Assembly: GCA_963665295.1 (NCBI GenBank)
Contig: OY762209.1
Coordinates: forward strand, 672,001-736,000
Length of the DNA stretch: 64,000 bases
Direction of reading: 5' to 3'
From: Syntrophorhabdaceae bacterium
Lineage (GTDB): Bacteria; Desulfobacterota; Syntrophorhabdia; Syntrophorhabdales; Syntrophorhabdaceae
Shown here: positions 1 through 7,082 of the stretch, piece by piece
Numbering within the stretch: position 1 is the stretch's first letter
Layout of the letters: each line of letters opens with the position of its first letter
Program-made: the position numbers and the translations under genes
The notes under the pieces: generated by a model
What the model was told of the DNA's origin: nothing
Databases searched by the model: none
Seen by the model: the letters and a program-made list of their open reading frames with translations, nothing else

Positions 1-855
1 TCTTTTTATGCGCTCCTTGCCACCATCAACTAATCGAATCTGTTCTTGCATTCTCTCACCAATATGCGCCATCACATCGTCCGGTGTCTTCGTACTAAAC
101 ATGTCCGGTAACGCGTCATCCGCCGTATCAGCTATGAGTTGAGCTATCCTGTCTTGGAGTTCTGTTTTTGGGATTTCGCGAAAATCCTTATGAAGCAATG
201 AATATACAACTCGTTGATGCCACCACTCAATGAGAATTTTAACGATGAAGTCTCTTTTGTCCTGACGCAGTGTATTTTTCAGGCGAGATTTAACCTCGTC
301 AGGTATGTGAGAAATGTCAAACGATCCCGGTTTGATTCGCATATGATCCACGAGCAGCTGGCGATCTGACAATTCTAGTTTGAGAAAAGCTTCAGCACCC
401 TTAAATCTCTTTTCGAATGGCAACTTATTAGCTTTCCTTTCCTCCGCCTCTTTGCGTTTCTGACATATCTTCATAGCCGCTTCTGAAAGGCGTATTGTTA
501 CCAATGACTTATCCGCGGGGTTATCGCAAAGTCGTGCGAGAGCGCTTTCGGGCCTTACACGGGAACAAGTCACAAGGATATAGTGATGATCAATGTCAAT
601 GGGTTTTGAACACCATATTCTCATGGTTTTCCAGAAAGCATCTGTATTTTCAGAGATATCCGGCTGTTTGACTCTGCTGTGTTTTATCTGGAATAATGTT
701 GGGGTATTGCCATGCAAGAAAACATCATCTTCCGTCTCAACTGAGACGACTCCATTATCATCCGCATCCAATAATACCACCAAGGCATATAAGCCTTGGT
801 GTACATACCCAAGATAAGAATCCGTGGCATCGAATAATGTGTTCGTCGTGTCCAT
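1..855 (-). CDS. Putative ABC-three-component/Lamassu-type system effector with N-terminal PD-(D/E)xK-like nuclease (runs off the window edge)
   Basis: Not in ORF track. Manual translation from ATG at 855 (RBS AAGGGGG) is open to base 1: MDTTNTLFDATDSYLGYVHQGLYALVVLL...VETEDDV...FQIKH...FWKTMRIW...LIEWWHQRV. The S-x-L-G-Y-x-x-Q, E-x-x-D-D, Q-x-K and WKT-x-x-x-W pattern resembles ABC-3C/LmuA effectors. Confidence 0.6.
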   Translation of the reverse strand, partial: MDTTNTLFDATDSYLGYVHQGLYALVVLLDADDNGVVSVETEDDVFLHGNTPTLFQIKHSRVKQPDISENTDAFWKTMRIWCSKPIDIDHHYILVTCSRVRPESALARLCDNPADKSLVTIRLSEAAMKICQKRKEAEERKANKLPFEKRFKGAEAFLKLELSDRQLLVDHMRIKPGSFDISHIPDEVKSRLKNTLRQDKRDFIVKILIEWWHQRVVYSLLHKDFREIPKTELQDRIAQLIADTADDALPDMFSTKTPDDVMAHIGERMQEQIRLVDGGKERIKR

Positions 856-894
856 AACCCCCTTAAGGTTCCTTTTAGACAATATAGACGAATA

Positions 895-1318
895 CTCTAT
901 GAAATCTGAATACGGCTGTTATCCGTGCTCACACAAATCCGATAGTAATCAACCAAAGGAGTGAGCACGTTTCTGAATGTATCATTGTTATTATACAAGA
1001 GATTTTCTGAATTACAATCAAAATCTAGAAGGGTTAGTCGAAAGATTCCAAATACTTCCTGTTCCGTCACTTGCAATCATAGGTTATCCATGGCGCCAAA
1101 AGGCACCTCTGAACTTCTCATAATAGTCGATACCACATCTATTGGTCTACTAAAAGGGTCCTAAGCGGCATAATTGACTGTCTTTCTTCATATCCAAATC
1201 CCTTTATCATTAAATCAGTTTCTAAAAAATTCAAGGAGGGAAAATCATGGGGATAACGATTCGCTACAAGGGAAAGGCAAAAAGCATTGAAGCGATCGAC
1301 AGCCTGATCGGGGAACCT
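895..1318 (-). pseudogene. Degraded AT-rich coding remnant of unknown function, cut by the IS66 end
   Basis: Coding-like stretches in different minus frames (RFPDQAVDRFNAF...; VTEQEVFGIFRLTLLDF...IQIS*) separated by stops or frameshifts; abuts the IS66 terminus at 1319. Confidence 0.3.
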
Positions 1319-1511
1319 GTAACAGTTTAGTCCTCCACCTCCGACCAACTCATCAACTTGAATTGCGATACAGAGCCCTCCGTGCGGTCTTCATGTCGGA
1401 AGTGAGAAGTATCTCCAGGAACTCCCTCGGCTTATGTCCCTGTCTCAAGGAGGTAAGCACAAGGCTCGGCAGAATGCTGTGGGTTCTCAATCCTTTTTCC
1501 GAGCGGAAGGA
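1319..1511 (-). mobile_element. IS66-family remnant: transposase C-terminus plus right end
   Basis: 1511->1353 translates SFRSEKGLRTHSILPSLVLTSLRQGHKPREFLEILL...*, resembling an IS66 TnpC tail; terminus GTAACAGTTTAG at 1319 (IS66 ends start GTAA). Confidence 0.65.
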
Positions 1512-1520
1512 ACATAGGGG

Positions 1521-1602
1521 TCACCCATTAAAGGGCCCCTGTCAAGAGATAATATTCCCCCTCACCCATTAAAGGGCCCCTGTCAAGAGGCAATATTCCC
1601 CC
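1521..1602. repeat. Tandem duplication (2 x 41 bp, 2 mismatches) of the IS1111 right end
   Basis: tcacccattaaagggcccctgtcaagag(at/gc)aatattccccc at 1521-1561 and 1562-1602. Confidence 0.95.
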
Positions 1603-1609
1603 GCAGCAA

Positions 1610-1975
1610 AAAACTAAGCATTTTTTGCAGGGTCTAATACGCCAACACCGGTACGTCGCTCCTTGACCCCTGTCTTCTGCGTCTGCTTTTTCTTCTCTTT
1701 CTCGGTTCGCATCTCTGACCTGCACCAGTCACCCATCGGGATTAAAGGTCTCTTATGGACCTCGTGTCTAATGACCCAGAAAATCGTCAGTTCCCTACCG
1801 TGTCCAATGTGTGGTTCTCAGCACCTATGGTTATAAGCCAACCCCTATGTAGGCTCACGGCACGGGCAGATCAGGTTCGCCAGGAGTTTTTCCCTTGGCT
1901 AAAGTTTTAGACGGGATAGGCCTCCCAATCAGCCCTCAAGGTTATAAGCCAACCCCTTTACCGGTTCCGCCTTCC
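1610..1975 (-). ncRNA. Predicted IS1111 bridge/seek RNA (two target-binding loops plus one donor-binding loop); boundaries approximate
   Basis: Repeated scaffold AGGGGTTGGCTTATAACC (1940-1957, 1829-1846), each followed by a target-like xxGxGCTGA; ATGGGTGA (1729-1736) equals the left half of the predicted circle junction. Confidence 0.7.
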
Positions 1976-2205
1976 CGCCGAATAGTTTCATTTCATCATA
2001 GACAACCTGGTCTCGTAAGATATGATATGATGCCCGCGCCAGTTTATTACTGATTGCCTTTATGGCCACTATCTTATTGGTCCTGGCCATTTTCTTCTGA
2101 TAATACCGTTGTACTACGGGATAATATCTCTTCGCAAAGTGAGTTAGGATGGATATAGTGGACACCATATGCGGTACAATATGGATACATAACGGAGGTG
2201 TCCGA

Positions 2206-2514
2206 GTGGCAAAGATTCCCAGAGGAGTGTTTACAAAAGAGTTCAAAGAGGAAGCGGTAAGAATGGTGACGGAGGGCGGTCTCGGCATACCTGAGGTAGG
2301 CAGAAGACTGTCACTTGCGAAGTCAACCCTCGCTCGGTGGGTAGCCCAGGCAAAAAGGGGCGGCCTTGTGGTAACGCGAGGTCAGGCGACGGACCAGGAC
2401 ATGGAAGTGGCCCGCCTGAAGCGTGAGATAGCTGAGCTCAAGATGGAGCGCGATATTTTAAAAAACGCGACCGCGTACTTTGCCAGAGAGTCGCTCAAAG
2501 GTACGCGATCGTGA
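2206..2514 (+). CDS. IS3 transposase OrfA (HTH)
   Basis: GTG start after GGAGG; FTKEFKEEAV...TLARWV...LKMERDILK; A-run near 2460 is a candidate -1 frameshift site. Confidence 0.9.
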   Translation: MAKIPRGVFTKEFKEEAVRMVTEGGLGIPEVGRRLSLAKSTLARWVAQAKRGGLVVTRGQATDQDMEVARLKREIAELKMERDILKNATAYFARESLKGTRS

Positions 2515-3371
2515 AAATCCTGCGACTCAAATATCCCCTTGCCCTTCTCTGTCAGGTACTCGAAGTATCTCGAAGCGGTTACTATGCATGGTTTAACCGC
2601 CCGCTTTCGCGACGCGCCCAGGAGGAAGAACGGCTGGAGATAGAGATAAAAGCTGCTCACAAAAGAACCCGGAAGACCTGCGGTCCCGAGAGACTGCAAA
2701 AGGATCTTGCCGGGCATGGCGTAAAGGTGGGCATCTCAAGGATCAGACGGATAAGGAAGAGGCTCGGTATACGGTGTAAACAAGTGAAGAAGTACAAAAC
2801 CACCACAGACTCGAATCATTCGCTCCCCGTGGCGGAGAACATCCTTGATCAGGATTTTACCGTGGAGGCTCCCGACGAGGTGTGGGTCAGCGATATCACC
2901 TACATCCCTACCGATGAGGGCTGGCTCTACTGTGCCGCCCACAAGGACCTTTTTACCGGGGAGATCGTGGGCTACGCCCTGGGGGCGAGAATGACCAGGG
3001 AGCTTGTGCTTAGGTCTCTCATAAGAGCAGTGGCAGTAAGAAAGCCACCGAAAGGCCTGATCCACCACTCGGATCGGGGAAGCCAGTACTGCTCTACTGA
3101 ATATCAGAGACTACTCCTGCAGTTCGGCATGAAAGCTTCAATGAGCAGAAGGGGCAACTGCTACGACAACGCGCCCATGGAAAGCTTCTGGGGTACGTTG
3201 AAAAATGAGCTTATCCATCACCGTAATTACCATACGAGGGATGAGGCGACCGGGGAGATTACCGAGTATATAGAAGTCTTCTATAACCGGGAGAGGCGCC
3301 AGAAACGGCTCGACTATTTATCTCCTGCGGCATACGCAAGAAGATACTATGCCCAGAAAAGGGCGGCGTGA
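2511..3371 (+). CDS. IS3 transposase OrfB (DDE integrase core)
   Basis: WVSDITYI...HHSDRGSQY...GNCYDNAPMESFW...YNRER. Confidence 0.95.
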   Translation: MKILRLKYPLALLCQVLEVSRSGYYAWFNRPLSRRAQEEERLEIEIKAAHKRTRKTCGPERLQKDLAGHGVKVGISRIRRIRKRLGIRCKQVKKYKTTTDSNHSLPVAENILDQDFTVEAPDEVWVSDITYIPTDEGWLYCAAHKDLFTGEIVGYALGARMTRELVLRSLIRAVAVRKPPKGLIHHSDRGSQYCSTEYQRLLLQFGMKASMSRRGNCYDNAPMESFWGTLKNELIHHRNYHTRDEATGEITEYIEVFYNRERRQKRLDYLSPAAYARRYYAQKRAA

Positions 3372-4353
3372 GAGACATTATTGGTGTCCACTATTGACAT
3401 CGGGGGTCAAAGTTCGCTGCTTCTATATATGCCCAGGAGAGATACCTGTTCCCGTTTCTCCTGTTGCCCTCCCCCTTGTTCTTCCCGTTTGAAGAGCGAA
3501 CACTTCTTACACATCGGCAATAGGAGGAGTAGTCTCCCACCCGGGGAAAGCGCGTGATAGATCCTGCCTCCAGCATGACGGTGAGGCCGAGGATATCTCC
3601 GATGCCGGGCAGGGTGAGGAGGCCTTTGAATTCATCCCTGAGTTTCGCCTCTGCAAGGATCACCCCTTCGATGCGGTCTATCTCTTTGGTGAGCTCACGC
3701 ATAATCGTAACGCTTGCGTTGACGGAGAGAAACAGATGTTCCTCCGGGAAGAGCTTTCTTACCTCAACCTCATCAAACTTCTTTACCACATCTCCCCTCA
3801 CGATAATTCCCAAACTCCGGCTTATGATGTTCTTGATGCTCAGGATATGGGAAGATCGATGACGCACCAGATGCAACCGTTTTCTCAGGAGATCCCGGAT
3901 GGGCCTCTCTTCCCTGGGATAAATATACCCTGTAGGCAATATCCCCAACCGTAAGAGATTGGCAAGCCAGAGGGCGCTTCTCTTATCGTCTATGTTCTTG
4001 AGTCCCTCATATTGTTTGATGGCTGCGGGATTGGCGAGACGCACCGTATATCCATTCTCCATGAGCCCATCCACGAACCAGTACCAGTTGAAGGTAGACT
4101 CCACCGCGATCGCGGACACCTCTTTCCTGAACGGGTCCAATGTGCCAAGAACAGTCGGGAGATCATTATTCAGCTTCTTCTGAAAGATGACCTTATTTGC
4201 CTCGTCAACGATACCTAGATAATTATTGTTTGAATGCAAATCTACTCCTACGTATAATGTCATTGGGCACCTCCTCATGAGTGTTTTGGTCAACCTCAAC
4301 ATAGTACAGCAAACCGTTGACTATGCGTAGGTGGTGCCCTTTAGATGATTATC

Positions 4354-4463
4354 AGCCCTTGACACGGGACAACAGGGCTGGCCCTTGGAGTAAAAGCATG
4401 TATTTCTAATCAGTTGCATCATCGCCAGAGCGTTTTGTCCTGTGTCAAGGGCAGACCCCCATG
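4354..4463. repeat. Remainder of the REP-like palindromic unit interrupted by IS1111 (left part at 1507-1523)
   Basis: Near-identical to 11051-11160; ends TGTCAAGGGCAGACCCC. Confidence 0.85.
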
Positions 4464-4475
4464 TCCCACTACTTT

Positions 4476-4727
4476 CCTGAGTTCCCGAAACAATGTAACG
4501 AGGAATTGAGATAAGTATCTAATAATGCAAGGCTAAAATGCACTTTTGCTTTCATAAATCATCGTTACGATGCCTACTGTTATAACGATGATTGGGAGAC
4601 GTCGTATGCTGGGCTATCCTTTATTAGGCCATTTAAAGAGACTGTAATTATAGATGCATACGGCCTGACCTCCCTTTGATGGGAGGAAAGACCCGCATGC
4701 ATCGTTACAATAACACGGGAACTCAGG
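4476..4727. mobile_element. IS1634-related MITE / internal-deletion derivative, 252 bp
   Basis: TIR CCTGAGTTCCCG...CGGGAACTCAGG; perfect 6-bp TSD TACTTT (4470-4475, 4728-4733); shares the CATCGTTAC...TAACGATG palindrome and TCGTTACAATA tail with the IS at 7083. Confidence 0.85.
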
Positions 4728-4788
4728 TACTTTCGCATCGCCCATAGTCAGCTCGAATTTCGATACAACGCCGCCTGTAGGAACACTA

Positions 4789-4886
4789 AGGGGATGTTGG
4801 TTCAAAGGGAAAACTTATCAGATGAACAACGAAGATCAATTGCTACCTTGAATCGCACGTAAGTTCCCTTCGAACCAACATCCCCT
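4789..4886. repeat. About 98-bp palindromic element (22-bp arms, 21/22 match), REP/MITE-like
   Basis: aggggatgttggttcaaaggga (4789-4810) pairs with tcccttcgaaccaacatcccct (4865-4886); 4833-4872 recurs at 10451-10490 (35/40). Confidence 0.75.
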
Positions 4887-4950
4887 GCGTCAGTGACAGC
4901 TTCTAGGAAGAGGGGGCTAAAGAATTGGGGAAACTTCAGGGAGGTTGGCA

Positions 4951-4979
4951 TTGACAATAGATACCTGTGGGGATAGAAT
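4951..4979 (+). promoter_or_regulatory. Sigma70 promoter of the dual-OB/DUF488 operon
   Basis: TTGACA-N17-TAGAAT. Confidence 0.7.
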
Positions 4980-5024
4980 TTTAGAAAGCGGAGTATTTTG
5001 CCAGGCAGGCAGGAAAGGGGGACT

Positions 5025-5723
5025 ATGGACATTATAATCACAGATCTTACGAGATTTGCAAATCCTGATATACTGTGTACGGCTGGGGTCAATCCTGAGA
5101 CAAATGAATGCGTTAGACCACTGCCCTACCTTGCTACGAGTGAGTGTCGCAGACTGAACATTCTGCCTGGAGCCACTATACGTGGAAATTTCGTTTCGGA
5201 ACGGCGCGCTAATCCACATTCAGAAGACAGAAAGCATGGAAAATTATCTTTTCTGGGGCCGTGCGGTTCAGAAAAGTTTAGATCCATTTTGGAGGCCACT
5301 ACCTGTCCTTCGGTAGAAGCAGGATTTGACATCCCCCTCGAAGAGGGACAGAAGCATGTACCAAACGATACGCCTCCTCGTATTTCCATAATTACTTTAT
5401 CAATTGATCCTACGGAATTGAACATAGTTTCCGATTCTTATACGCCAGGAAAAATAAAGGTAATCTTTACTGATCGTGCCGGAAAATCGTTCCGATATTT
5501 ACCTATTACGGATTTGGGATTCTACAATTACGCTCAGAAGCATGTTAGAAACAACGATATTGAGGGGTTAAATGGTTTCATTCATTCTCAAGAAAAGATC
5601 TTTATTCGTCTCGGCCTGAGCAGGAGTTATAAGGACCCTAACGGAAGATACGGGTTTTGGCTGCAAGTTAATGGTATCTACACGTTTCCGGAATACTTGG
5701 AAGAGATTAGGTGCTATAAATAA
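5025..5723 (+). CDS. Dual OB-fold domain protein (DUF488-associated)
   Basis: ATG after AAGGGG; MDIIITDLT...CTAG...VRPLP...PHSED...YLPITD...IRLGLSR...WLQVNGI resembles the dual-OB family found next to DUF488 genes. Confidence 0.6.
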   Translation: MDIIITDLTRFANPDILCTAGVNPETNECVRPLPYLATSECRRLNILPGATIRGNFVSERRANPHSEDRKHGKLSFLGPCGSEKFRSILEATTCPSVEAGFDIPLEEGQKHVPNDTPPRISIITLSIDPTELNIVSDSYTPGKIKVIFTDRAGKSFRYLPITDLGFYNYAQKHVRNNDIEGLNGFIHSQEKIFIRLGLSRSYKDPNGRYGFWLQVNGIYTFPEYLEEIRCYK

Positions 5724-5744
5724 ATAATAGGAAATATCGAGATT

Positions 5745-6356
5745 ATGATTCATGAGATTTATTCAATAGGATATGCGGCGTTTTCAATCGGAGAATTCGT
5801 AAACGCGTTATTGAAGCATGGGATCAACGCGATAGCCGACGTTCGTTCTCAGCCCTATAGCAGATTTAAACCAGAATTTAATCGTGACAACTTGAGACGG
5901 GTTTTAAGAACACATAATATTGGCTATGTTTTTCTAGGAGATGAATGCGGAGCAAGAATTGGCTCATCTGAATACTATGTGAATGGAAAAGTGAGCTTTG
6001 ACTTAGTAAAGGATGATAAAGGATTTCAGAGGGGGCTGCGGCGTCTCCGGAAGGGGGCAGGGAAGTATCGTCTTGCTATCATGTGTGCCGAAAAAGACCC
6101 AATAATGTGTCACAGAACCATTCTAATCTGCCGCAATTTACGTTCCCCCGATATTGTTATTAAGCATATCATAGAAAACGGATTCATTGAGGACCACAGC
6201 GATACCGAGAAAAGGCTTTTACGGATTCATAACTTGGATCGATCCGACTTATACAGCACTTATGGTGAACGCCTCGAAGAAGCATATAGTCGTCAGGGCG
6301 AAAAGATTGCATATAATCCCTTGCGGGAACCGCAAGAAAGATCATTGGAATACTAA
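5745..6356 (+). CDS. DUF488 family protein (rhodanese-phosphatase superfamily), long form
   Basis: IYSIGY...DVRSQPYS...LG...MCAEKDPIMCHR. Confidence 0.9.
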   Translation: MIHEIYSIGYAAFSIGEFVNALLKHGINAIADVRSQPYSRFKPEFNRDNLRRVLRTHNIGYVFLGDECGARIGSSEYYVNGKVSFDLVKDDKGFQRGLRRLRKGAGKYRLAIMCAEKDPIMCHRTILICRNLRSPDIVIKHIIENGFIEDHSDTEKRLLRIHNLDRSDLYSTYGERLEEAYSRQGEKIAYNPLREPQERSLEY

Positions 6357-6807: not shown

Positions 6808-7082
6808 TCACCCATTAAAGGGCCCCTGTCAAGAGGCAATATTCCCCCGCAGCAAAAAACTAAGCATTTTTTGCAGGGTCTAATACGCCAACACCGGTAC
6901 GTCGCTCCTTGACCCCTGTCTTCTGCGTCTGCTTTTTCTTCTCTTTCTCGGTTCGCATCTCTGACCTGCACCAGTCACCCATCGGGATTAAAGGTCTCTT
7001 ATGGACCTCGTGTCTAATGACCCAGAAAATCGTCAGTTCCCTACCGTGTCCAATGTGTGGTTCTCAGCACCTATGGTTATAA
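6808..7082 (-). mobile_element. Second, truncated copy of the IS1111 right end / RNA region
   Basis: Identical by eye to 1562-1836; preceded by the REP half ATAGGGGTC; cut by IS1634 after GGTTATAA. Confidence 0.92.

What the first reader, a model, noticed from the sequence alone, without database searches (positions are those of the whole stretch)
1729..1965. Bridge/seek RNA with two tandem target-binding loops plus a donor loop
Seen (minus strand): loop 1 = AGGGGT-TGGCTTATAACC-TT-GAGGGCTGA (1957-1929); loop 2 = ACATAGGGGT-TGGCTTATAACC-AT-AGGTGCTGA (1850-1818); loop 3 = ATTA...GGTC-hairpin-GACC...ATGGGTGA (1772-1729). The target top strand is AAGGGC-TGA-CCCCTATGT. Loop 1 matches its left half (AGGGCTGA) and complements ACCCCT. 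Loop 2 complements ACCCCTATGT (10/10) but carries a variant left guide. Loop 3 matches the predicted circle junction TAATGGG-TGA-TAAT. Known: IS110-family RNAs guide recombination through a target loop and a donor loop. Inferred: a duplicated, diverged target loop gives one recombinase two programmed specificities (REP variants), i.e. a natural multiplexed guide mini-array. Loop 1 overlaps the final transposase codons, whose TGA stop is the core. I cannot tell whether this architecture is already described.
Basis: partly seen in the sequence, partly recalled or inferred. Interest (0 to 1): 0.85.

Follow-up and report, generated by a model that had tools for sequence, protein, structure and literature searches.

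The report
IS1111 guide RNA, two target loops
The tail of a dead jumping gene encodes a guide RNA with two similar target-reading loops plus a loop for the element's own ends; its whole family shares this layout, but both target loops point at the same site rather than at two.

Summary
On the minus strand, 1979-1715 is the right-end non-coding region of an IS1111-group (ISGsu4-like) insertion sequence. It sits in a REP-like site, GTCAAGGGC-TGA-CCCCTATG.

The element is dead here. An IS3-family element splits its transposase gene, and the genome holds no intact copy.

Three modules are conserved across the family:
- **M1 (1979-1910)** is a separately folded target loop that overlaps the transposase stop codon.
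- **M2 (1865-1793)** is a paralogous target-type loop.
- **M3** is the donor loop. It shares one domain with M2, closed by a long-range stem (1874-1715).

Compensatory changes support the stems. Both M1 and M2 were found in 68 of 99 sources, always in that order.

M1's strands track each element's own flanks. M2 tracks the same flanks more weakly. No insertion or REP variant matches the site M2 would imply in this clade.

So the tandem-loop architecture is real and ancient, but "two programmed specificities" is not supported here.

Seven relatives carry two M1 loops. One genome shows two flank classes that fit the two loops, which is suggestive only.

I found no paper describing a second target loop. 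Earlier notes of this scan describe IS1111-type guide RNAs on other DNA; none of those listed mentions one.

Verdict: new variant of a known kind.

The parts
1562..4351 (-). IS1111-group (ISGsu4-like) insertion sequence, from left end TAATCATC... (4351) to right end ...TAATGGGTGA (1562). It is interrupted by an IS3-family element.
   Evidence: Junctions were read. Homologues end at the position equal to 1562. Pfam finds PF01548 and PF02371.
4352..4363 (-). Left target half GTCAAGGGC (4363-4355) plus core TGA (4354-4352).
   Evidence: The same left flank occurs in L005, L006, L019, L007 and L020.
3410..4263 (-). Transposase gene, 5' part (DEDD and the start of Transposase_20).
   Evidence: It is 78-79% identical to L005, L006 and L007.
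2140..3409 (+). Inserted IS3-family element (orfA 2149-2514, orfB 2511-3371). Target duplication CTT at 3412-3410 and 2139-2137.
   Evidence: Pfam finds HTH_Tnp_1 and rve.
1929..2139 (-). Transposase gene, 3' part. The stop TGA at 1931-1929 lies inside module 1.
1910..1979 (-). Module 1 (M1), a stand-alone target loop. Stem P1 pairs 1979-1969 with 1921-1910. Right-target strand AGGGGT at 1957-1952. Hairpin at 1954-1940. Left-target strand TTGAGGGC at 1939-1932. Core TGA at 1931-1929.
   Evidence: Covariance model R1 scores 60.1 bits, E 4.9e-12. P1 shows changes on both sides in 11 of 11 pairs. Its strands track the flanks.
1715..1874 (-). Bridge-RNA-like domain closed by stem P0 (1874-1866 with 1723-1715). 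It holds modules 2 and 3.
1793..1865 (-). Module 2 (M2), a paralogous target-type loop. Stem P2 pairs 1865-1856 with 1802-1793. 5' strand ACATAGGGGT at 1850-1841. Hairpin at 1843-1829. 3' strand ATAGGTGC at 1828-1821, then TGA at 1820-1818.
   Evidence: Model R2 scores 83.4 bits, E 4.6e-19, over 1785-1875.
1729..1788 (-). Module 3 (M3), the donor loop. The 3' strand GATGGGTGA (1737-1729) equals the right-end tip plus core. The 5' strand GACGATTTT (1788-1780) is a candidate partner of the left end. Inner hairpins lie between them.
   Evidence: The 3' strand covaries with the right end in L090, L091, L105 and L070. The 5' strand assignment is unresolved.
1562..1602 (-). Right-end tip. It carries TTGACA (1586-1581), the sub-terminal repeat GCCCTTTA (1577-1570; its partner TAAAGGGC is at 4343-4336) and ATGGG-TGA.
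   Evidence: Joining the ends would give TTGACA-17 nt-GATAAT (read from the sequence).
1521..1561 (-). Second, tandem copy of the 41-nt right-end tip, followed by the right target half CCCCTATGT (1520-1512).
6808..7082 (-). Transposase-less copy, 100% identical to 1836-1562. It starts inside the M2 hairpin and ends TAATGGGTGA|CCCCTATCC.

Best explanation
**What it is.** This is the guide-RNA region in the right end of an IS1111-group insertion sequence. The element is a fossil here: the transposase gene is broken and the genome holds no intact copy. The region encodes three conserved modules.

**M1** is a separately folded target loop. Its 3' strand has the sequence of the target's left half plus the core (AGGGC-UGA). 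Its 5' strand is complementary to the right half (ACCCCU). M1 is the module whose strands change when the family changes target, so it sets the insertion site.

**M2** is an old paralogue of M1. It sits with the donor loop M3 inside one domain closed by a long-range stem. That is the layout of a canonical IS1111 bridge RNA: a target loop plus donor-binding nucleotides in a multiloop.

**M2 reads the same site as M1, not a different one.** It does so with fewer pairs and with frequent mismatches at -2 and -3. In this window its right strand happens to be the better one (10 of 10) and M1's left strand the better one.

**M3's** 3' strand reads the right-end tip plus core.

**How it probably works (inferred, not shown).** By analogy with seekRNA and bridge RNA, transposase dimers load on the loops. 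M1 acts as a target-loop-only 'seeker'. M2-M3 acts as the bridging unit that holds the circle junction and the core of the target.
For: **Family and element**
- Pfam finds PF01548 and PF02371.
- The long non-coding region lies downstream of the gene, with sub-terminal repeats TAAAGGGC/GCCCTTTA.
- Empty target sites exist in the genome.

**Conservation**
- The whole region aligns at 73-79% identity in 5 other genomes.
- nhmmer finds it in 74 of 80 loci that encode transposases 47-63% identical.
- Of 99 sources searched, the covariance models find M1 in 72, M2 in 87 and both in 68. M1 is always 5' of M2.

**Structure**
- P1: 11 of 11 pairs changed on both sides; 87.5% of cells paired against 36-55% when slid; 0 of 500 shuffles as high.
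- P0 and P2: 95.8% paired against 33-43% when slid; 11 of 23 pairs changed on both sides; 0 of 500 shuffles as high.

**The constraint is on the nucleic acid, not the protein**
- The GGCTGA of M1 is kept while the stop codon moves.

**Guide against own left flank, positions -1 to -5**
- M1: 49, 48, 50, 53, 44 of 58 (null 26.0, 18.7, 25.5, 33.7, 29.6).
- M2: 47, 34, 28, 37, 31 of 58 (null 23.9, 15.8, 16.5, 27.9, 19.4).
- In 47 insertions with both modules, M1 has the longer contiguous match in 38, M2 in 4, with 5 ties.

**Natural retargeting**
- L020 carries AGGGC-TGA in M1 and sits in AAGGGC-TGA. Its sisters L009-L011 and L021 carry AGATT-TGA. L020's M2 stayed AGATT-like.

**Donor loop**
- GATGGGTGA is constant, like the right end. 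It changes together with the right end in L090, L091 and L105 (TGG) and in L070 (GGA).

**Order of strands**
- The top-strand match lies 5' of the bottom-strand match, as reported for IS1111 seekRNAs (PMC11187229, section read).
Against: **No RNA evidence**
- Two metatranscriptome runs gave only contigs of relatives over the right-end part.
- Rfam has no matching family.

**Weak thermodynamics**
- Folding energy alone is not significant: z -1.75 for M1, -0.81 for M2 and 0.07 for the 286-nt region.

**Limits of the flank test**
- The rows compared are related, so counts overstate independence.
- Element ends were called by pattern, and 41 of 88 M2 hits could not be paired with both a flank and an M1 hit.

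**Observations that fit the explanation poorly**
- M2's left strand is above the null at all five positions and is the better match in 4 of 47 insertions (L042, L064, L081, L106). It may therefore be an active target loop in its own right.
- In the window, M2's right strand (10 of 10) beats M1's (6 of 10). A pure 'M1 decides' model does not predict this.
- The guide-like strands of M2 vary as much as those of M1 (9 distinct 5-mers each in 18 elements). M2 is neither frozen nor obviously free.
- The right donor guide is not identified. L081 and the G064 element share the left end TATTCAT but differ in the candidate strand.
Confidence: 0.65

Rival explanations
1. M2 is a second, independently programmed target loop, so one recombinase inserts into two site variants (AGGGC-TGA-CCCCT and AGGTGC-TGA-CCCCTATGT).
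For: - M2 is conserved, structured and variable in its guide-like strands.
- Its left strand fits the real flank better than M1 in 4 of 47 insertions (L042, L064, L081, L106).
- In the window its right strand is a 10 of 10 match.
- In G064 a three-loop element sits in two left-flank classes.
Against: - M2's strands follow the same flank as M1 rather than a second sequence class.
- Its right strand equals the null beyond CCCC: 12 and 13 of 46 against a null of 12.2 and 14.3.
- None of the 6 insertions of the window's clade and L020 is in a GGTGC-TGA site.
- GGTGCTGACCC has 4 genome hits, none REP-like.
- In G064 the two flank classes fit the two M1 loops. M2 fits only through two U-G wobbles.
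Confidence: 0.12
2. M2 is the working target loop of the bridge RNA, as its position beside the donor loop suggests. M1 is an accessory: a regulator, a decoy, or a target-loop-only RNA used for a separate step, such as the direct transfer described for an IS110 element.
For: - M2 and M3 share one closing stem, which is the canonical layout.
- M2 was found in more sources than M1 (87 against 72 of 99).
- A target-loop-only RNA cooperating with a full bridge RNA has been reported for CazIS110-1 (preprint 10.1101/2025.10.25.684509; abstract and section 8 read).
Against: - M1, not M2, carries the strands that fit the flanks best (38 of 47 against 4 of 47).
- M1 is the loop that changed in the retargeted L020.
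- M2 matches at -3 in only 28 of 58 cases.
- The 19 sources with M2 only are mostly a clade in which a diverged M1 still scores weakly.
Confidence: 0.1
3. M2 is a decaying duplicate with no targeting role. It survives only as a scaffold, and its likeness to M1 is refreshed by gene conversion between the tandem copies.
For: - The 18-nt identity between the two loops is peculiar to the window. In homologues the two hairpins differ, as a recent conversion would give.
- M2's match to the flanks is partial.
Against: - Compensatory changes keep P2 and P0.
- M2 is present in 87 of 99 sources.
- Its left strand stays above the null at every position.
- Hairpin loops are usually not homogenised between M1 and M2.
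Confidence: 0.1
4. The repeats are not RNA guides. They are DNA-level binding sites or remnants of target sequence captured in the right end.
For: - The left-guide DNA is by definition identical to the target's left half.
- One transposase-less copy (L022) starts exactly after M1's core.
Against: - Compensatory changes in three stems point to a folded single strand.
- The strand order and geometry match the seekRNA and bridge RNA loops.
- The strands change with the flanks while the ends stay constant.
Confidence: 0.03

Closest known systems
seekRNAs of IS1111-family elements ISEc11, ISPa11, ISKpn4 and ISPst6 (Siddiquee et al. 2024, PMC11187229)
   Same: [quoted passage not shown] - The elements have sub-terminal inverted repeats and REP-type targets.
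- Short and long RNA forms exist.
- A natural retargeting by changed loop strands is known (ISEc11 against ISXne4; here L020 against its sisters).
   Different: - Those elements are described with one pair of target matches, in an 82-96 nt RNA inside a 151-172 nt long form.
- Here there are two target-type loops in separate domains, and three in some relatives.
- The first loop can overlap the reading frame.
- The transposases are distant. The closest named family in the plasmid collection is ISGsu4, at about 49% identity.
- I read their non-coding sequences in Supplementary Table 1 by eye only and saw no such tandem loops.
Bridge RNA of IS621 and the predicted IS1111 bridge RNAs (Durrant et al. 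2024, PMC11208160; Hiraizumi et al. 2024 and 2026)
   Same: - One loop reads the target and one reads the donor.
- Each loop has a strand for the left half plus core and a strand for the right half.
- In IS1111 members the RNA lies in the right end, with donor-binding nucleotides in a multiloop (passage read). That is what M2-M3 looks like.
   Different: - This RNA has an extra, separately closed target loop upstream of the bridge domain.
- The loop inside the bridge domain fits the target less well than the extra one.
- The order of strands is reversed relative to IS621.
Target-loop-only RNA cooperating with the full bridge RNA in CazIS110-1 (Sun et al., preprint 10.1101/2025.10.25.684509)
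   Same: There are two RNA species or modules that read the target: one stand-alone and one joined to the donor loop.
   Different: - There the stand-alone RNA is a truncated form of the same loop.
- Here it would be a separate, paralogous loop with its own stem and its own strands.
- No RNA data exist here.
ISPpu9 with MITEPpu9 (ssr9), modular transposition (Pares-Guillen et al. 2025, PMC12288879)
   Same: Transposase-less copies of the RNA-bearing part occur elsewhere in the genome (window 7082-6808; L022, L028).
   Different: - The window's solo copy starts inside the M2 hairpin.
- Its left flank reads GTCAGG, like the target's GTCAAGG, so it looks like a deletion derivative rather than a mobile module.
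- No duplicated end boxes flank it.

Membership tests
IS110 family, IS1111 group | DEDD transposase carrying PF01548 and PF02371 | tested here: met
   PF01548 at E 2.9e-12 and PF02371 at E 8.1e-11 on the 5' part of the gene.
IS110 family, IS1111 group | The long non-coding region lies downstream of the transposase gene | tested here: met
   About 370 nt lie between the stop (1929) and the end (1562). The left end is about 90 nt.
IS110 family, IS1111 group | Sub-terminal inverted repeats with short terminal extensions | tested here: met
   TAAAGGGC (4343-4336) and GCCCTTTA (1577-1570), with extensions of 8 and 5 nt.
IS110 family, IS1111 group | Site-specific insertion at a short shared core, with empty sites recoverable | tested here: met
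   Five empty GTCAAGGGCTGACCCCT sites in the genome. Five relatives have the same left flank.
IS110 family, IS1111 group | A circular intermediate with a junction promoter | not testable with these tools
   Joining the ends would give TTGACA-17 nt-GATAAT, read. No circle data exist.
seekRNA / bridge RNA | A conserved folded RNA in the non-coding end | tested here: met
   Stems P1, P0 and P2 show compensatory changes. Rfam holds no family for it.
seekRNA / bridge RNA | Loop strands covary with the target flanks | tested here: met
   M1 left strand matches in 44-53 of 58 at -1 to -5, against a null of 19-34. M1 right strand matches in 23 and 28 of 55 at +5 and +6, against a null of 15 and 16.
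seekRNA / bridge RNA | Donor loop strands match the element ends | tested here: inconclusive
   The left donor strand matches and covaries with the right end in two lineages. The right donor strand is not identified.
seekRNA / bridge RNA | The RNA is made and binds the transposase | not testable with these tools
   Only contigs of relatives' right ends were found in two RNA libraries.
Multiplexed guide array (two programmed specificities) | The second loop's strands specify a site different from the first loop's | tested here: not met
   M2 follows the same left flank as M1, more weakly. Its right strand equals the null.
Multiplexed guide array (two programmed specificities) | Insertions or genomic sites of the variant type exist | tested here: not met
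   None of 6 insertions lies in a GGTGC-TGA site. The 4 genome hits to GGTGCTGACCC are not REP-like.
Multiplexed guide array (two programmed specificities) | In elements with two M1 loops, insertions fall into classes that fit one loop each | tested here: inconclusive
   G064 has 2 copies at AAGGTT-TGA (fits M1a) and 2 at (A/C)AGACC-TGA (fits M1b with one wobble). With wobble pairs M1a also fits, and n is 4. In G067, 2 of 2 copies fit M1a.

The most novel reading that the evidence does not exclude
This IS1111 subfamily splits target reading between two kinds of loop.

- The first is a freely reprogrammable, stand-alone target loop (M1). It can be duplicated into small arrays whose members carry different strands and send copies of one element to different site classes, as the 2+2 pattern in G064 hints.
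- The second is a bridge domain whose own target loop (M2) reads only the core and its nearest neighbours.

That would be a natural 'seek plus bridge' system with built-in multiplexing. In it, specificity evolves in a module that is uncoupled from the donor-holding RNA.
Probability: 0.3. Interest if true: 0.8.

Novelty: new variant of a known kind. Interest (0 to 1): 0.6.

Why it matters
Bridge and seek RNAs are described as one RNA with one target loop and one donor loop. Engineering of bridge recombinases rests on that picture.

This is a widespread natural family, found here in records labelled as delta-proteobacterial, Nitrospirota, Acidobacteriota and other MAGs. It keeps a second target-type loop in a separate domain and sometimes a third. 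That raises three testable questions:
- Are target search and synapsis done by different loops?
- Is partial complementarity in the bridge-domain loop functional, for example for excision or for fidelity?
- Do loop arrays give one enzyme several addresses?

It also gives a natural template for multiplexed or split guide designs.

For this genome the element itself is an inactive fossil.

Tried and rejected
**Searches that gave nothing useful**
- Rfam at E up to 1 over 1-6000 gave only a mir-548 match to a long inverted repeat at 4790-4885, which has nothing to do with the element.
- Sequencing runs: 2 RNA libraries held only contigs of relatives over 1510-1757. No contig covered M1 or M2 in RNA, and contigs cannot show ends or strand. 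This gives no evidence either way.
- Earlier notes of the scan: nothing on this genome and nothing on tandem loops.
- Protein search of plasmids for a characterised relative gave only the ISGsu4 family label at about 49% identity.

**Analyses replaced or flawed**
- The first pattern-based flank test missed M1 hairpins ending AATCC and misparsed some cores (L106, L096, L108). The model-aligned test replaced it.
- In one search one row (L006:560-652) was a wrong stretch inside the gene. The stem counts I cite come from one search, which did not include it.
I resent it with 99.

**Ideas rejected**
- 'ATTA' as right donor guide: rejected.
- GACGAUUUU as right donor guide: 7 of 9 complementary to A|TAATCATC, but covariation is contradictory.
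- The solo copy as a mobile MITE-like module: rejected in favour of a deletion derivative.
- Isolated 40-nt right-end units in relatives: the 4 found again, out of 11 loci examined, follow element-like sequence (2 lie near a locus start). I did not pursue them.
- M2's strands as more conserved than M1's: not so.
Full report
**1. What is there**

All coordinates are on the minus strand.
- An IS110-family transposase gene starts at 4263. It carries PF01548 and PF02371.
- A 1270-bp IS3-family element cuts the gene at 3409-2140. That element has HTH_Tnp_1 and rve domains and a target duplication CTT.
- The gene resumes at 2139 and stops at the TGA of 1931-1929.
- The left junction reads GTCAAGGGC-TGA|TAATCATCTAAAGGGC.
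- The right end reads ...CTCTTGACAGGGGCCCTTTAATGGG-TGA and ends at 1562. A second tandem copy of the last 41 nt follows (1561-1521), then CCCCTATGT.
- The sub-terminal repeats TAAAGGGC/GCCCTTTA and the long downstream non-coding region place the element in the IS1111 group.
- Joining the two ends would create TTGACA-17 nt-GATAAT, a junction promoter. This is read from the sequence and was not tested.
- The genome has 7 hits to GGGCTGACCCC. Five are empty REP-like sites reading GTCAAGGGCTGACCCCT.
- The element is dead in this genome. The only other transposase match is a 225-residue fragment at C1:818734-819408, cut at both sides. The only other copy of the non-coding region is a 275-bp remnant at 7082-6808.

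**2. The observation**

- The 18-nt repeat AGGGGTTGGCTTATAACC occurs exactly twice in 64 kb, even with 2 mismatches allowed. It occurred in none of 100 shuffles.
- Loop 1 carries AGGGC-TGA (identical to the target's left half plus core) and AGGGGT (complementary to ACCCCT).
- Loop 2 carries ACATAGGGGT, complementary to ACCCCTATGT at 10 of 10. Its left strand ATAGGTGC-TGA agrees with the target only at -1 and -2 before a mismatch.
- Loop 3 carries GATGGGTGA, which equals the right-end tip.
Homologues read CATTA, CGCAA, CGTAA or CGCATGC there, while the left end stays TAATCAT.

**3. Relatives**
- A DNA search of 61 related genomes found matches in 16, counting the window's own genome. Six full-length copies of the non-coding region, in 5 genomes, are 73-79% identical.
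- A more distant clade shares the part from loop 2 to loop 3 (L009-L011, L020-L022, L028).
- A protein-profile scan of genome contigs found 591 relatives. The best 80 were kept; they are 47-63% identical, and their record titles span several phyla.
- nhmmer with a seed alignment found the region in 74 of these 80.
- The closest named family in the plasmid collection is ISGsu4.

**4. Anatomy from comparison**

I call the loops M1, M2 and M3.

M1 is a domain of its own: an 11-bp stem P1, an internal loop and the hairpin GGTTGG..AACC.
- All 11 pairs of P1 show changes on both sides.
- 87.5% of cells pair, against 36-55% when the partner is slid by 1-3 columns. None of 500 shuffles reaches the observed values.

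M2 has the same hairpin and its own 10-bp stem P2. M2 and M3 together are closed by a 9-bp long-range stem P0 (window 1874-1866 with 1723-1715).
- For P0, P2 and the hairpin together, 95.8% of cells pair, against 33-43% when slid.
- 11 of 23 pairs changed on both sides: 6 of 9 in P0 and 5 of 10 in P2.
- None of 500 shuffles reaches the observed values.

The four hairpin pairs never vary, so they say nothing either way.

Folding energy alone is unremarkable: z -1.75, -0.81 and 0.07. P1, P0 and P2 do appear in the minimum-energy fold of the 286-nt stretch.

Two covariance models were searched over 99 sources.
- M1 was found in 72 (E at most 1e-3), M2 in 87, and both in 68.
- M1 was always 5' of M2, with a gap of 9-308 nt and a median of 29.5.
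- The 19 sources with M2 only are mostly one clade, where a diverged M1 scores weakly.

So M2-M3 has the layout reported for predicted IS1111 bridge RNAs: a target loop, with donor-binding nucleotides in a multiloop (passage of PMC11208160 read). M1 is an additional target loop upstream.

**5. M1 is constrained as nucleic acid**

In the window, L006, L007 and L008 the reading frame runs into M1 and stops at its TGA. In L004 it stops at an earlier TAG, in L005 at a TAA inside the hairpin, and in the L009-L021 clade before M1. GGCTGA, or its equivalent, is kept in all of them.

**6. Which loop reads the target**

I took loop strands from the model-fitted alignments and called element ends by pattern. 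I then compared each strand with its own flanks and, as a null, with the flanks of other elements that have a different site.

| Comparison | Observed | Null |
|---|---|---|
| M1 left strand, -1 to -5 | 49, 48, 50, 53, 44 of 58 | 26.0, 18.7, 25.5, 33.7, 29.6 |
| M2 left strand, -1 to -5 | 47, 34, 28, 37, 31 of 58 | 23.9, 15.8, 16.5, 27.9, 19.4 |
| M1 right strand, +5 and +6 | 23, 28 of 55 | 15.0, 15.9 |
| M2 right strand, +5 and +6 | 12, 13 of 46 | 12.2, 14.3 |

The first four positions of the right flank (CCCC) are shared by most of the family and carry no information.

Among 47 insertions with both modules and a readable left flank, M1 has the longer contiguous match in 38, M2 in 4 (L042, L064, L081, L106), and 5 are ties.

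Rows dropped:
- modules whose aligned strand was shorter than 6 nt (left) or 10 nt (right);
- sources without a recognisable end.

The left flank of L056 was set by hand to the 6 nt available.

The rows are related to each other, so these are descriptive counts and not probabilities.

A natural retargeting points the same way. L020 carries AGGGC-TGA in M1 and sits in AAGGGC-TGA. Its sisters carry AGATT-TGA. L020's M2 stayed AGATT-like.

**7. What M2 is not, and what it may be**

If M2 encoded a second specificity, its strands should point to a sequence class different from M1's, and some copies should sit there.
- Its left strand follows the same flank as M1.
- All 6 readable insertions of the window's clade and L020 are in AAGGGC-TGA sites.
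- GGTGCTGACCC occurs 4 times in the genome, never in a REP context.

M2 is not junk either.
- Its stems are kept by compensatory changes.
- It is present almost everywhere in the family.
- Its strands vary as much as M1's (9 distinct 5-mers each in 18 elements).
- Its left strand stays above the null.

The best reading is a second loop for the same site, with fewer pairs, concentrated at the core and its neighbours.

In the window the two loops complement each other. M1 has the better left strand (5 nt plus core). M2 has the better right strand (9 nt plus the core A).

The 18-nt identity between the two loops is special to the window, since homologues differ there. It may be a recent gene conversion.

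**8. Donor loop**
- GATGGGTGA is constant, as is the right-end tip.
- It changes together with the right end in L090, L091 and L105 (TGG in both) and in L070 (GGA in both).
- The partner of the left end is unresolved. GACGAUUUU is 7 of 9 complementary to A|TAATCATC. The G064 element has the left end TATTCAT with GACGAATTT, whereas L081 has the same left end with unchanged GAAGATTTT.

**9. Arrays of M1**

Eleven sources carry two M1 loops. They come from seven elements: L035, L049, L075, L076, L081, the G064 element and the G067 element.

In G064 four identical copies of such an element lie in two left-flank classes.
- Two copies lie at AAGGTT-TGA, which fits M1a (AGGTT).
- Two copies lie at AAGACC-TGA or CAGACC-TGA, which fits M1b (AAGATC) with one U-G wobble.
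- With wobble pairs M1a and M2 also fit, the right flanks do not discriminate, and n is 4.

In G067 both copies fit M1a.

This is the only hint of multiplexing, and it concerns M1 duplicates, not M2.

**10. Known systems and novelty**

The element is a member of the IS1111 group, and its RNA is of the seekRNA / bridge RNA kind.

What I read:
- PMC11187229: abstract, five sections and Supplement 1.
- PMC11208160: passages.
- PMC13626964: abstract.
- Preprint 10.64898/2026.08.31.748434: abstract.
- Preprint 10.1101/2025.10.25.684509: abstract and section 8.
- Preprint 10.64898/2026.10.21.760802: passages and section 8.
- Review PMC13604230: passages.
- PMC12288879: abstract and three sections.

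These describe one target loop and one donor loop, short and long seekRNA forms, and, in one preprint, a truncated target-loop RNA that cooperates with the full bridge RNA.

Full-text searches for tandem, duplicated, additional or multiple target-binding loops and for ISGsu4 found nothing relevant. I therefore rate the architecture as a new variant of a known kind.

The mechanism in which M1 seeks and M2-M3 bridges is inference by analogy. No RNA, binding or transposition data exist for this family.

Noticed in passing
window 2140-3409: A complete-looking IS3-family element (orfA and orfB with a possible frameshift overlap at 2511-2514, imperfect terminal repeats of about 30 nt, target duplication CTT) has inserted into the IS1111-type transposase gene.
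   Followed up: partly
window 1521-1602; also L134, L098, L056: The 41-nt right-end tip is tandemly duplicated in the window. Similar tandem right-end tips occur in relatives (L134 has a 35-nt unit that includes the right flank). Repeated half-site events at the right junction are a possible cause.
   Followed up: partly
window 6808-7082: A transposase-less copy, 100% identical, of the region from inside the M2 hairpin to the right end, next to CCCCTATCC. Its left flank reads GTCAGG, like the target's GTCAAGG, so it looks like an internal deletion of a former full copy.
   Followed up: partly
G000:C1:818560-819640 (outside the window): A second fragment of the same transposase gene (residues 14-238, 99% identical). 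Another sequence cuts it at the 5' side. At the 3' side it abuts an inverted copy of the REP target. Two empty target sites lie within 100 nt.
   Followed up: partly
L115, L119, L121, L122 (G064): Four identical copies of an element with two M1 loops lie in two left-flank classes, AAGGTT-TGA and (A/C)AGACC-TGA. Each class fits one of the two loops.
   Followed up: partly
L022 (G055) and L010: A transposase-less copy of the non-coding region starts exactly after the core of M1 (..CCCATTTGA|TTAGGCG..). This looks as if the DNA that encodes the left guide had served as a pseudo left junction.
   Followed up: no
L066:3525-3700: A copy in which the 5' half of M1 is fused directly to the inner hairpins of M3. 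It has lost the rest of M1 and all of M2, and is a decayed element.
   Followed up: no
L098:1940-2245: An insertion of about 300 nt lies between M1 and M2. This is the largest spacing seen, and it shows that the two domains need not be adjacent.
   Followed up: no
window 4790-4885: A perfect 22-nt inverted repeat (stems GGGGATGTTGGTTCGAAGGGAA / TTCCCTTTGAACCAACATCCCC, 52 nt apart) lies left of the element. Rfam scored it weakly as mir-548 (33 bits against a cutoff of 90), which is spurious. Its nature is unknown.
   Followed up: no
L033, L035, L036, L039, L030: In this clade M1 carries UAA where the target core is TGA (GCACC-TAA against CACC-TGA). This is a fixed mismatch in the middle of the core.
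   Followed up: no
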